A stretch of 63,469 bases of DNA, the filler included, from Vannella sp. (lineage: Eukaryota): NCBI GenBank assembly GCA_023345925.1. It is 8 parts of 8 records of this genome, joined end to end, with 100 filler letters (N's around TTAATTAATTAA, not from the genome) between each part and the next. Parts side by side here need not be neighbours in the genome. Positions count along the whole stretch, not along the records: positions 31,547 to 39,099 come from JAJQQN010001031.1; 7 more parts are not named here. The stretch is one strand, 5' to 3'. Below are positions 33,756 to 36,368 of this stretch, one piece after another. A program made the translations under genes and the position numbers. The notes under the pieces are model-generated. The model was given only the letters and a program-made list of their open reading frames with translations, did no database searches and was not told where the DNA came from. The stretch's first letter is position 1, and every line of letters starts with the position of its first letter.

Positions 33756-36368
33756 TTAGTGACTTAGAGGGTGATCATTAGCATGTAGTTCATCTTTAAA
33801 AGAGAATACCTGCTCTTTGAACTCCTTCCAGAATTGATCAAGAGAGTGTAGAGTCCGAGAGAGATCACTTTCGAATGCCAGTGCGTTTTGGATGTAAGGA
33901 AGGACAGAGTACTTCCAAGTTAAGTCCATTGTTAGCAGACACTGTTCTTGTAACTCCGTATTGAAGCGTTCCATCGGCCACATTGTGGACTTCATAAAAT
34001 AGCTGGGGCCGAGATTTTTGTCCGGACAGGCCAACAGCACATTCACCTTCCCTATCAAAGCAAACAGAGCCGATACAACCTTTCCATTGTGATCAGGACA
34101 CAATGTACTGTACCAATTCCGGAAGACATTAAAGACGATGCCATTCTATTCATCAAGTCAGAGTCTGGTAGAGAGGGAGGGTTTGGAGAGCTTACAGGAT
34201 CGGTAACATTGTGCAAGTCAATAAAGTGGAAACGCCGCATGAGAGCGTCGTCTAAAAGAGCAATAGAACGGTCTGCTGTGTTCATGGTAGCAATCATGTA
34301 GATATTGGGTGGCAGAGAAAGATTCTCAGTGGAGTATTGAAGTGTCACTTGGCCCTGTCTCTCATCCAGCAAGTAGAATAACTCTCCAAAGATTTGGCAA
34401 ACATTCCCACGATTGATTTCATCCACAACCATAACAAACGTCTCAGAAGGGGCTGCCAAAGCCCTCCGGATCATGCTCACCATTGGGCCGTCTCTCAGTT
34501 TGTATCCGACCTGGTGTTGTTCAGAAACTGGACGGAAGCCCATCATAAAGTCCTCATAAGCATAGTTGGGGTGGAATTGGACCATTTGCCAGTCCCCTGC
34601 TGAAGAAGCGATTCTTTTGGCAAGATTCTTCGCCAGAAAGCTTTTCCCAGTTCCTGGAGGACCGCGGAATATCAGTTGCTTCTTCAGTTGTAATAAATGG
34701 AGGATTTCTTGCAAGGTTTCAATGGGCACATTCGTCTCTAGACTGGCTCTTTGGATATCTGAGTAGCCTCCCACTAATATACTTTGTGTGGGAGCGATTG
34801 TTTGCGATACTGGAGGAATAGCTTCGATGGGAGGTGCATCTTTTGGACCACTATTATCAACAGGACTGCCTTGAGGGACCAAAAAATCACTTTGGGAGAG
34901 CTGTTTCGAAGCACAAAGAAAGTGCAACGGCTCAGAGGATCGAAGATAGCGCATAGCGGGTAGCAAGAAACCATCAAGGTGATGTCCAATACTATAAGGG
35001 ACTCCTTGCTCCCCAGCAATCTGCAGCAGCTTCCCCAAGAGTCTTCCAGCCTGTTCTAAAGTGACTCCAAACGACATCCTTTCTGATGTAGCTTGATCAA
35101 GTGATCTTGGTGGCGTTCGGAAAGGTATTGGTAAGGGAGATGGTGTCGGAGAGACCTCGTCTAAATCAATAACTTCCGCATCCTGCGGCAAGTCCACCTT
35201 TTGCAACTTTCGAGCTCTTTCCTCTCCCGGATCGGTCCGTGTGCGCTTGTGAGATGAACCTGATCTTCCAGAAGCAGAATACTGTTCGCTTGGCTGGAAG
35301 AGGTGCAGTTTGAGATAACCAGAAATGGCATTTTGAGGGTTTTGTGGAACTGCCCCTTTCTCCAACAGCCACAGGGCGATATCAAGATGGCCATATTCAA
35401 TGGCTAAAGTAGGATCCTTCGATAAATAAGTACTTAGCGACAGGTTGCCAGAAACTCACAGAAAGTCGATAGACAGGACTTTCTGCAATCTCTTGTGCAA
35501 TCAAGAGGTTCCCGCGAATGACAGCCAGATCCATGGCTGTCCTCTAATAAAGAGTTATTCATGAACGTCCAGAACTGCTTGAGAGAGCTTCTTGCCTTCT
35601 TTAGATTCACCAGATCGACATTTGCCACTTGCCGTTGCCCCAGGAGTAGTCTCACAACTGCCAAGTTCTCTTTTGATGATGCAATGTGTAGAGGAGTGTC
35701 CTGCTTCAAGTCAGAACCCTTCATAATGCCCAATTCTCGAACCTGAGAAGACGAGAGCACATTCAGGTTTGCTTGGTTGTCGAGAAGGCTCTCCACAACC
35801 TCTACGTCTCCTAAACGAGAAGCTACATGCAAAGGAGTCTCCTTCAGAGTCTAATAGAAGGAGATCAGCTCCAACGGTGACGTTATCAACAATCCCTCAC
35901 TCTGTTCGCCACATTGACGTCAATGCCCCTCTCAATGAGGACCAAGGCGATGTCTGTTTGTCGGTGGAGTACAGACAAGTGAAGAGGAGTGTCCCCGCTC
36001 CCCTGGCACGCGGTAATCAGACGATTGCAAGGCAGATCGAGCATTTGCCTACCCAGATGGGCTCATTGGCCTTGGCACCATTCCTGAGAAGTACTCGAGC
36101 TAGTGGCAAGTACCCAGCTCGACAGGATGTATGCAGAGCACTCTCCTGCTCTCCGGTAAGCCTAAATCGATCAAGCTTTCGTTCCCACGCCTCACCAGAC
36201 TCTCCTGCGCGCCAGAGACATAAGAAGCTAGTCTCTACACTCTTACAACATCACCTCACTCACTTGATGAGTCGCATTGACGTCTTGACCGCCAGAAAGG
36301 AGGTGCTGAACTGCCATAGCGTCTCCCTCTTGCACCGCAGCCCACCAGGCACTCATCAAATGCTTCAT
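33756..36368 (-). CDS. Ankyrin-repeat / McrB-like AAA+ GTPase fusion (multi-exon)
   Basis: About 6 ankyrin repeats (SALHTSCRAG, TPLHLSV, PLHVASRLG, TPLHIASSK, TAMDLA), then GPPGTGKS, VQFHPNYAYEDF, VVDEINRGN, FGELFYLL, MNTADRSIALLDDALMRRF and LGPSYFM. Intron 34146-34195 restores the reading frame. Confidence 0.9.

What the first reader, a model, noticed from the sequence alone, without database searches (positions are those of the whole stretch)
33756..36368. Eukaryotic ankyrin-McrB fusion: a bacterial restriction-type AAA+ GTPase with spliceosomal introns and no McrC
Seen: Walker A GPPGTGKS (~34641-34663), QFHPNYAYEDF, Walker B DEINRG, MNTADRS (~34265-34285), ALMRRF and GPSYF, downstream of about 6 intron-separated ankyrin repeats. 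One intron (34146-34195) lies inside the C-terminal part of the AAA module. The gene shares a contig with PPIL3 and the DAO gene, which argues against bacterial contamination. Known: these motifs, especially NTAD, define McrB, the GTP-driven motor of modification-dependent McrBC restriction. Its N-terminal specificity domain is frequently swapped and it normally needs McrC. Animal McrB-related proteins (UNC-53/NAV, and ankyrin-containing CTTNBP2) are much more diverged. Inference: a horizontally acquired McrB whose DNA-recognition domain was replaced by a protein-sensing ankyrin array, possibly a sensor-oligomerising NTPase in protist innate immunity against viruses or endosymbionts.
Basis: partly seen in the sequence, partly recalled or inferred. 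Interest (0 to 1): 0.92.

Follow-up and report, generated by a model that had tools for sequence, protein, structure and literature searches.

The report
Protist gene built from bacterial McrB
A eukaryotic microbe carries an intron-split gene that joins ankyrin repeats to a near-intact copy of the bacterial anti-phage motor McrB, likely taken from bacteria independently of the animal copy and predicted to work in the nucleus as a ring-shaped motor without its usual DNA-cutting partner.

Summary
Nine exons (8 phase-0 introns, 42-59 nt) give an open 739-aa frame: 7 ankyrin repeats, a linker, a small helical domain, then a McrB AAA+ core and lid. The last ankyrin repeat and the core share one exon, so the fusion does not depend on the splice model. 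It is not a contaminant: codon usage is host-like, and exon fragments from at least two other lineages (67-74% identical in the core) stop at the same splice site. These form one clade (100/99) on a long stem beside bacterial McrBs (about 50-55%), whose 15 best Chloroflexota loci all have McrC next door. No McrC was found in the window; the whole genome is not held. Two new points: the linker has an NLS-like motif and a SUMO-interaction-like core in 3 of 3 orthologs; and an Arg-Glu ring-interface pair, whose mutation doubles basal GTPase in Thermococcus McrB, is replaced. Best reading: a second eukaryotic domestication of McrB, likely a nuclear, ankyrin-targeted ring NTPase with basal activity. 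An immune-sensor role has no direct support (no effector domain). Expression, GTP specificity, host lineage and the relation to NAV/CTTNBP2 were not directly tested.

The parts
36264..36368 (-). Exon 1, ankyrin repeat 1 (N-cap); start codon 36368 assumed
   Evidence: Ank E 0.019; the frame is open further upstream
36196..36204 (-). Exon 2, predicted 9-nt micro-exon (uncertain; skipping it keeps the frame)
36053..36148 (-). Exon 3, ankyrin repeat 2
   Evidence: E 3e-4
35901..36002 (-). Exon 4, ankyrin repeat 3
   Evidence: E 7e-7
35743..35850 (-). Exon 5, ankyrin repeat 4
   Evidence: E 8e-8
35596..35700 (-). Exon 6, ankyrin repeat 5; followed by a predicted GC-AG intron 35595-35544
   Evidence: E 1.5e-7
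35460..35543 (-). Exon 7, degenerate ankyrin-like repeat 6
   Evidence: no Pfam hit
34196..35416 (-). Exon 8 (407 aa): ankyrin repeat 7, linker, helical domain and McrB core in one uninterrupted frame
35288..35416 (-). Ankyrin repeat 7 and capping helix (aa 204-246); its tail is conserved in ortholog P0389, the capping helix in P0389 and P0390
   Evidence: E 0.0088; pLDDT about 90 over exon residues 1-30
35198..35248 (-). Bipartite NLS-like basic motif (aa 260-276)
   Evidence: present at the aligned place in 3 of 3 orthologous linkers; pattern recalled
35162..35173 (-). SUMO-interaction-like core VIDL (aa 285-288) followed by acidic/Ser residues
   Evidence: core in 3 of 3, stricter recalled pattern in 1 of 3
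34883..35077 (-). Conserved 65-aa three-helix domain of no known family (aa 317-381)
   Evidence: (pLDDT 59.5)
34196..34738 (-). McrB AAA+ core (aa about 430-610): Walker A, helix-2 insert, Walker B, MNTADRS, trans Arg pair R597/R598; Met596 replaces a conserved Arg
34146..34195 (-). Intron 8 between core and lid; orthologous fragments end at the same point
33756..34145 (-). Exon 9: McrB lid domain and C-terminal tail; Asn697 and Ala700 replace a conserved Glu and aromatic residue
31547..39099 (.). Host contig: cyclophilin (PPIL3-like, intron-split), DAO-family oxidoreductase, this gene, two RCC1-repeat genes

Best explanation
This is a eukaryotic, intron-split gene encoding seven ankyrin repeats fused to a near-intact McrB AAA+ motor, likely acquired long ago from a bacterium in a transfer separate from the animal NAV/CTTNBP2 one, and predicted to act in the nucleus as a self-sufficient ring NTPase. 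Shown: the gene structure, the domain order, the intact catalytic motifs, orthologous exons in other lineages, and the absence of McrC from the contig. Inferred mechanism: (1) the bipartite basic motif imports the protein into the nucleus; (2) the ankyrin array, possibly helped by the SUMO-binding-like motif, binds a protein or chromatin target in place of the lost methyl-DNA reader; (3) nucleotide binding, probably GTP, assembles a hexamer; (4) loss of the Arg424-Glu527-type interface pair raises basal hydrolysis, so McrC is not needed; (5) the retained pore loop grips a partner or substrate and the ring remodels or moves it. The target is unknown. A conserved chromatin or genome-surveillance job fits better than a fast-evolving receptor.
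For: Fusion inside one exon. Host-like codon usage in the AAA part: log-likelihood ratio +27.9 for host over bacterial usage; GC 0.46 against 0.57-0.64 in the 15 bacterial loci. Orthologous fragments P0122, P0273 and P0383 are 67-74% identical in the core and end within 1-15 residues of the intron-8 site. P0389 and P0390 share the capping helix, linker motifs, helical domain and Walker A. Clade support 100/99, stem 1.3, sister to 51 bacterial rows at 98/82 (100 SH-aLRT among 144 rows). Catalytic residues are invariant in 4 of 4 core sequences. The NLS-like pattern is present in 3 of 3 linkers (shuffle fractions 0.016, 0.058, 0.08); both motifs together occur in 0 of 231 bacterial upstream regions. 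Arg at 596 is in 139 of 140 bacterial rows but Met in 4 of 4 eukaryotic rows. Glu or Asp at 697 is in 121 of 122 filled bacterial rows but Asn here, and 0 of 122 lack both. Numbering was mapped to Thermococcus McrB, where Ala mutants at these interface residues raise basal GTPase about twofold (PMC7680126 passages).
Against: No expression data. The Glu298 equivalent, needed for hydrolysis in E. coli McrB (PMC6624300) though negligible in Thermococcus, is Asp or Gly in the clade, so activity may be weak. [quoted passage not shown] The McrC-remodelled loop and the pore aromatics are fully kept, which also fits a McrC or other activator encoded elsewhere. The lid changes are seen in one sequence only. 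The His that contacts guanine N7 in Thermococcus is Pro here, as in 127 of 140 bacterial rows, and some McrB homologs are nucleotide-promiscuous. My first SIM pattern was loosened after seeing the sequences; the stricter one matches 1 of 3. Full ankyrin arrays were not seen in orthologs. The tree holds only top hits to the query and no NAV/CTTNBP2 rows.
Confidence: 0.45

Rival explanations
1. A relocated restriction-like system: McrC, or a host protein mimicking its stalk, is encoded elsewhere, and the pair cuts or remodels foreign nuclear DNA selected through the ankyrins.
For: The loop that McrC remodels and the pore aromatics are kept in 4 of 4 core sequences (roles from PMC6624300 and PMC7680126). 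15 of 15 best Chloroflexota loci carry adjacent McrC (Pfam McrBC on 5 of 5 ORFs tested). The NLS-like motif fits.
Against: No McrC-like segment in the window (best E 3.5 among 1912 segments) or in the protein, and the helical domain does not resemble McrC. The Tyr530-equivalent that contacts McrC is Ala. The same loop is also catalytic, which alone explains its conservation.
Confidence: 0.17
2. One reading: an innate-immune sensor in which ankyrins detect a pathogen protein and trigger NTP-driven oligomerisation, as in NLRs.
For: Origin from an anti-phage protein; repeat domain plus oligomerising NTPase; precedent of amoebal TirBCD taken from bacterial immunity (PMC13142454 abstract).
Against: No effector domain in Pfam scans. 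The nSTAND3 hit covers only the Walker A region and is below its cut-off. No paralog in the window, and one conserved type rather than an expanded family in the searches.
Confidence: 0.15
3. A weak-NTPase scaffold or switch for the cytoskeleton or signalling, convergent with CTTNBP2/NAV and S. aureus PcdA.
For: McrB derivatives took this route twice (PMC10602043 passages). The Glu298 equivalent is changed. The ankyrin-plus-McrB layout recalls CTTNBP2 (recalled).
Against: Walker A and B, the NxxD motif and both trans arginines are invariant, unlike PcdA and CTTNBP2. The NLS-like motif is conserved. No coiled-coil or CH family was hit.
Confidence: 0.13
4. A living-fossil ortholog of the CTTNBP2/NAV ancestor: one ancient transfer, retained intact here and degenerated in animals.
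For: Similar domain order to CTTNBP2 (recalled). Long stem in the tree. Host lineage undetermined.
Against: The lid has no match to the NAV1-like lid PF25408, although bacterial P0187 matches it at 6e-6. Distribution is very patchy (a handful of environmental fragments). The core is 50-60% identical to one bacterial group.
Confidence: 0.07
5. An assembly chimera or bacterial contaminant.
For: Short contig from what looks like a binned assembly; no reads could be laid.
Against: An intron lies inside the McrB domain. Codon usage is host-like. A 98% identical fragment comes from other contigs (P0121). Independent orthologs have the same layout.
Confidence: 0.02

Closest known systems
McrB of McrBC type IV restriction (E. 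coli 6hz4/6ut6, Thermococcus 6ut5; nearest named relatives from Chloroflexota)
   Same: AAA+ core and lid, Walker A/B, MNxxDRS, trans Arg pair, helix-2 insert aromatics, pi-stacking Phe after Walker A.
   Different: Ankyrins, NLS-like linker and a new helical domain instead of a DNA-reading domain; no adjacent McrC; introns; Arg424-, Glu527-, Tyr530- and Glu298-equivalents replaced.
Animal CTTNBP2 / NAV1-3 / UNC-53
   Same: Eukaryotic McrB-derived AAA+ without McrC (PMC9877351, PMC10602043, PMC11090510 passages); ankyrin repeats before the AAA in CTTNBP2 (recalled, not from a call).
   Different: CTTNBP2's AAA is described as degenerate and the family as cytoskeletal. Here the motifs are intact, the lid does not match PF25408, and no CH or coiled-coil family was hit.
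S. aureus PcdA
   Same: McrB co-opted without McrC for a non-restriction job (PMC10602043 passages).
   Different: PcdA has degraded Walker motifs and EVE domains and is bacterial.
Dictyostelium TirBCD; bdelloid N4CMT
   Same: A bacterial defence or RM domain transferred without its operon and domesticated; N4CMT gained a eukaryotic chromodomain (PMC13142454 abstract; PMC8885841 passages).
   Different: Those are an NADase and a methyltransferase with tested activities; this is a motor with no tested function.

Membership tests
McrB-family AAA+ domain | Walker A and Walker B | tested here: met
   GPPGTGKS and DEINRG; Thr to Ser in Walker A in 3 of 3 eukaryotic rows
McrB-family AAA+ domain | MNxxDRS signature | tested here: met
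   Invariant in 4 of 4 core sequences
McrB-family AAA+ domain | Two adjacent trans arginines (sensor II, arginine finger) | tested here: met
   R597 and R598 map to Thermococcus 425/426
McrB-family AAA+ domain | Glu298-type residue orienting sensor II | tested here: inconclusive
   Asp, Asp, Gly, Gly, each followed by an acidic residue; Glu in 137 of 140 bacterial rows
McrB-family AAA+ domain | C-terminal helical lid | tested here: met
   Exon 9, E 7.9e-8 to a bacterial-only lid profile
McrB-family AAA+ domain | GTP preference and hexamer formation | not testable with these tools
   Specificity is read largely by main-chain contacts; needs biochemistry
McrBC type IV restriction system | N-terminal modified-DNA recognition domain | tested here: not met
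   Ankyrins plus an unclassified helical domain; no likeness to the bacterial upstream domain (hhalign probability 1%, within shuffles)
McrBC type IV restriction system | Adjacent McrC gene | tested here: not met
   None in the 7.55-kb contig or the window; the flanks are DAO and RCC1 genes
McrBC type IV restriction system | McrC anywhere in the genome | not testable with these tools
   No whole genome held
NAV/CTTNBP2/UNC-53 | NAV1-like AAA lid (PF25408) | tested here: not met
   No family for exon 9; bacterial P0187 hits it at 6e-6
NAV/CTTNBP2/UNC-53 | CH or coiled-coil domains (NAV); degenerate NTPase motifs (CTTNBP2) | tested here: not met
   family features from PMC9877351 and PMC10602043 passages
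NAV/CTTNBP2/UNC-53 | Phylogenetic grouping with the animal clade | not testable with these tools
   No tool returned animal sequences; the trees lack them
STAND/NLR-type immune sensor | STAND NTPase plus effector domain | tested here: not met
   nSTAND3 22.7 bits against cut-off 27.2, Walker A region only; no effector family

The most novel reading that the evidence does not exclude
A protist lineage independently rebuilt McrB into the same ankyrin-plus-motor layout as animal CTTNBP2, kept it catalytically intact, freed it from McrC by replacing both partners of the ring's restraining Arg-Glu pair, and uses it as a nuclear, SUMO- and ankyrin-guided GTP motor for surveillance of chromatin or invading DNA: a restriction motor whose reader was swapped from DNA marks to protein marks.
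Probability: 0.25. Interest if true: 0.85.

Novelty: new variant of a known kind. Interest (0 to 1): 0.62.

Why it matters
In the papers I could read, the only eukaryotic McrB branch described is the animal NAV/CTTNBP2 one. Its NTPase activity is unconfirmed (PMC9877351), and the largest McrB census excluded eukaryotes (PMC11090510). An intact, probably independent eukaryotic McrB is a natural intermediate for asking how a defence motor works once its nuclease is lost. It names specific residues (596, 697, 700, 554) whose effect on McrC-free hydrolysis can be assayed directly. It also adds a motor to the short list of bacterial immune proteins domesticated by protists. Limits: the host is unidentified and the function untested.

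Tried and rejected
No whole genome is held, so paralogs and McrC could not be sought genome-wide. No RNA holder was listed, which is no evidence either way. A metagenome scan with a clade-specific pattern gave 85 stretches; 7 of 85 were McrB at 38-45% and none matched the ankyrin part. Viral scans gave 0 of 16, 4 of 18 (40-45%) and 0 matches. The genome-collection scan gave 2 of 83. Plasmids (86 records) and phages (23 records) were all under 60%. BFVD gave only distant AAA proteins, at most 20% identical among the 50 rows listed, so there is no sign of a viral donor. I thought by eye that the helical domain might be a remnant of the bacterial upstream domain; this was rejected (probability 1%, shuffles as high). 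It is also not McrC-like and has no fold match (best E 5.2, low-confidence model). The VIA wide fold search and the ESM Atlas gave no answer. No complex prediction was obtained, so there is no verdict on the hexamer. An H4K20me0-reader signature of the TONSL/BARD1 type (recalled) is not visible in the repeats (by eye). Host lineage could not be fixed; amoebozoan-like is a guess from gene content and recall. The Val after the intron-8 boundary is not diagnostic by itself, since 58 of 140 bacterial rows have it; the early stop before the lid is the evidence. Earlier-findings look-ups returned nothing. PMC6344862 had no passage on the residues asked. Literature searches listed no protist ankyrin-McrB. 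The library lacks most subscription papers, including Iyer 2004 (seen only as cited), and I read no supplements, where such a protein could be listed. I recall automated 'McrB-like' labels in some marine invertebrates; this was not tested, and none could be recognised among the listed top hits.

Full report
Setting. The window is eight contigs joined by N44-TTAATTAATTAA-N44 linkers. Its genes are eukaryotic: myotubularin, ATG9, RasGAP, RhoGEFs, SET, PHD, a mitochondrial carrier (27 ORFs scanned) and histone H3. No whole genome is held. The finding lies on a 7.55-kb contig (31547-39099) with an intron-split cyclophilin, a DAO-family gene whose stop lies 30 bases from ours, and two RCC1-repeat genes. 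The host lineage was not determined; amoebozoan-like is my guess from gene content and recall.

Gene structure. Eight introns of 42-59 nt, all phase 0, give an open 739-aa frame. Seven are not multiples of three. The introns fall roughly one per ankyrin repeat. Six of seven repeats hit Pfam Ank. Repeat 7 and the AAA core lie in one 407-aa exon, so the fusion does not rest on the splice model. The folded exon has a confident ankyrin-like start, a disordered linker, a partly ordered helical domain and a confident AAA core, with McrBC as top structural match. Exon 9 is the McrB lid, so intron 8 interrupts the bacterial-type domain. Codon usage of the AAA part favours host over bacterial usage. 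A contaminant or chimera is very unlikely.

Relatives. In the 256-816 aa search the best 120 of 7997 scored proteins are 49-58% identical and none lists an ankyrin family. An ankyrin profile finds nothing among all 408 fetched proteins (best E 0.96). The few named close hits with an organism are Chloroflexota. Fragments stand out above these. P0121 is 98% identical. P0122, P0273 and P0383 are 67-74% identical in the core. P0389 and P0390 are 43-45% identical over the linker and Walker A region (3 of 118 candidates passed, one being P0121). The three core fragments stop 1-15 residues after our intron-8 site, before the lid. The two upstream fragments run into Val and a stop just after Walker A, where only 3 of 140 bacterial rows have Val. 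I read these as exons called by a prokaryotic gene finder; this is inference, since their DNA could not be fetched. It implies a shared intron 8 and one further intron that our gene lacks. P0122 and P0390 both have a longest contig of 7949 bases, which fits one locus but does not prove it. P0389 begins in the tail of ankyrin repeat 7; whole ankyrin arrays were not seen in orthologs.

Phylogeny. The four eukaryotic core sequences form one clade: SH-aLRT 100 among 144 rows kept from 397 after de-duplication, and 100/99 in a core-only tree of 60 rows. That tree left out three long-branch rows and all but 43 randomly chosen of the remaining rows. The stem is long (1.3) against a crown depth of about 0.3, and the clade is sister to a broad bacterial group (98/82) with no close donor. 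This fits an old transfer or a burst of change followed by constraint. The sample is biased to top hits and holds no animal rows. Independence from NAV/CTTNBP2 therefore rests on the intact motifs, the missing PF25408 lid match and the patchy distribution. In Chloroflexota, 33 of 401 genomes match at E up to 1e-35. All 15 best loci carry McrC next door; 10 of the 15 were in the training profile, the other 5 were found independently, one split over two frames. The window has none.

Active site. Against 140 bacterial rows, Walker A and B, MNTADRS, both trans arginines, the stacking Phe and the pore-loop aromatics are kept (roles from PMC7680126 and PMC6624300). Clade-specific changes hit positions that are nearly invariant in bacteria. 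Arg596 becomes Met in 4 of 4 rows. Glu697 becomes Asn and the aromatic at 700 becomes Ala (lid seen only in our gene). Lys544 becomes Gln and Glu554 becomes Asp or Gly. Mapped to Thermococcus numbering, 596, 697 and 700 are Arg424, Glu527 and Tyr530. Arg424 and Glu527 pair in trans at loose interfaces; Ala mutants of these interface residues roughly double basal GTPase, and Tyr530 contacts McrC. The other three residues of that set (Arg360, Arg414, Asp420) are kept. None of 122 bacterial rows lacks both pair members. This suggests adaptation to life without McrC. Against it: the Glu298 equivalent is essential in E. coli, and basal activity is about 30-fold below the stimulated rate. GTP specificity cannot be read from sequence, and some homologs are promiscuous.

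Linker. In a region only about 20-35% identical between orthologs, all three keep a bipartite basic motif and, about ten residues later, a hydrophobic core followed by acidic or Ser residues. Shuffle fractions for the NLS-like pattern are 0.016, 0.058 and 0.08, and for the SIM core 0.036, 0.02 and 0.10; a stricter recalled SIM pattern matches only our protein. With a looser pattern set after seeing the data, 0 of 231 bacterial upstream regions have both motifs (13 and 9 have one). The patterns are recalled, and localisation is a prediction. The 65-aa helical domain is conserved in 3 of 3 but matches no family, fold, McrC or bacterial upstream domain.

Mechanism and odds. My estimates: real eukaryotic gene 0.97; independent of the animal lineage 0.85; active NTPase 0.75; nuclear 0.65; working without a McrC homolog 0.65. 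The combined model, a nuclear ankyrin-targeted ring motor with basal activity, gets 0.45. Rivals: relocated McrBC-like restriction 0.17, immune sensor 0.15, CTTNBP2-like scaffold 0.13, CTTNBP2 ancestor 0.07, artefact 0.02. The domain belongs to the McrB family; the gene is not a McrBC system by the tests made here, and it is not shown to be a Navigator.

Literature seen. PMC9877351: passages and section 11. PMC10602043, PMC11090510, PMC8885841 and 10.64898/2026.08.31.748284: passages. PMC7680126: passages and section 8. PMC6624300: passages and the first part of Results. PMC13142454: abstract and outline. PMC6344862: term search without hits. Iyer 2004: only as cited. Eight searches listed no protist ankyrin-McrB; subscription papers and supplements were not covered.

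Verdict. Real, conserved in a small eukaryotic clade, and apparently undescribed: a new variant of a known kind, the domestication of a bacterial defence protein, with a striking parallel to CTTNBP2 and directly testable residues.

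Noticed in passing
window 11327-11426, 20231-20330, 26691-26790, 31447-31546, 39100-39199, 47804-47903, 59225-59324: Seven 100-base N-run pairs; the three whose centre I printed hold TTAATTAATTAA. 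The window is eight joined contigs, so neighbourhood across them means nothing.
   Followed up: yes
window 36480-37556 and 38042-39099 (+): Two RCC1-repeat genes in tandem, 68% identical in DNA; the second spans two frames (intron or frameshift) and runs off the contig. Suggests an expanded family.
   Followed up: partly
window 3892-11325 (+): An open frame of at least 2478 aa without a Pfam match at E 1e-4, cut by the contig end.
   Followed up: no
window 39797-40948 (-) and 39200-39775 (+): A 383-aa frame without a convincing family (Pfam best E 0.01) ending in a basic cluster, and a neighbouring frame without a Pfam match; possibly lineage-specific transcription factors.
   Followed up: no
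window 30643-31047 (+): Histone H3 with a divergent N-terminal tail; its 90% cluster has 61 members, including a marine eukaryote transcriptome entry.
   Followed up: partly
window 19527-20183 (-): GlfB-like C-terminal domain (PF24929, E 6e-11).
   Followed up: no
P0080, P0305: Bacterial-type McrB proteins with an N-terminal RRM RNA-binding domain (PF00076) in place of a DNA reader.
   Followed up: no
L096:2-1325: The McrC gene next to McrB is split over two reading frames.
   Followed up: no
L050:132-349: Five pattern matches spaced 48 bases apart, a tandem repeat unrelated to McrB.
   Followed up: no
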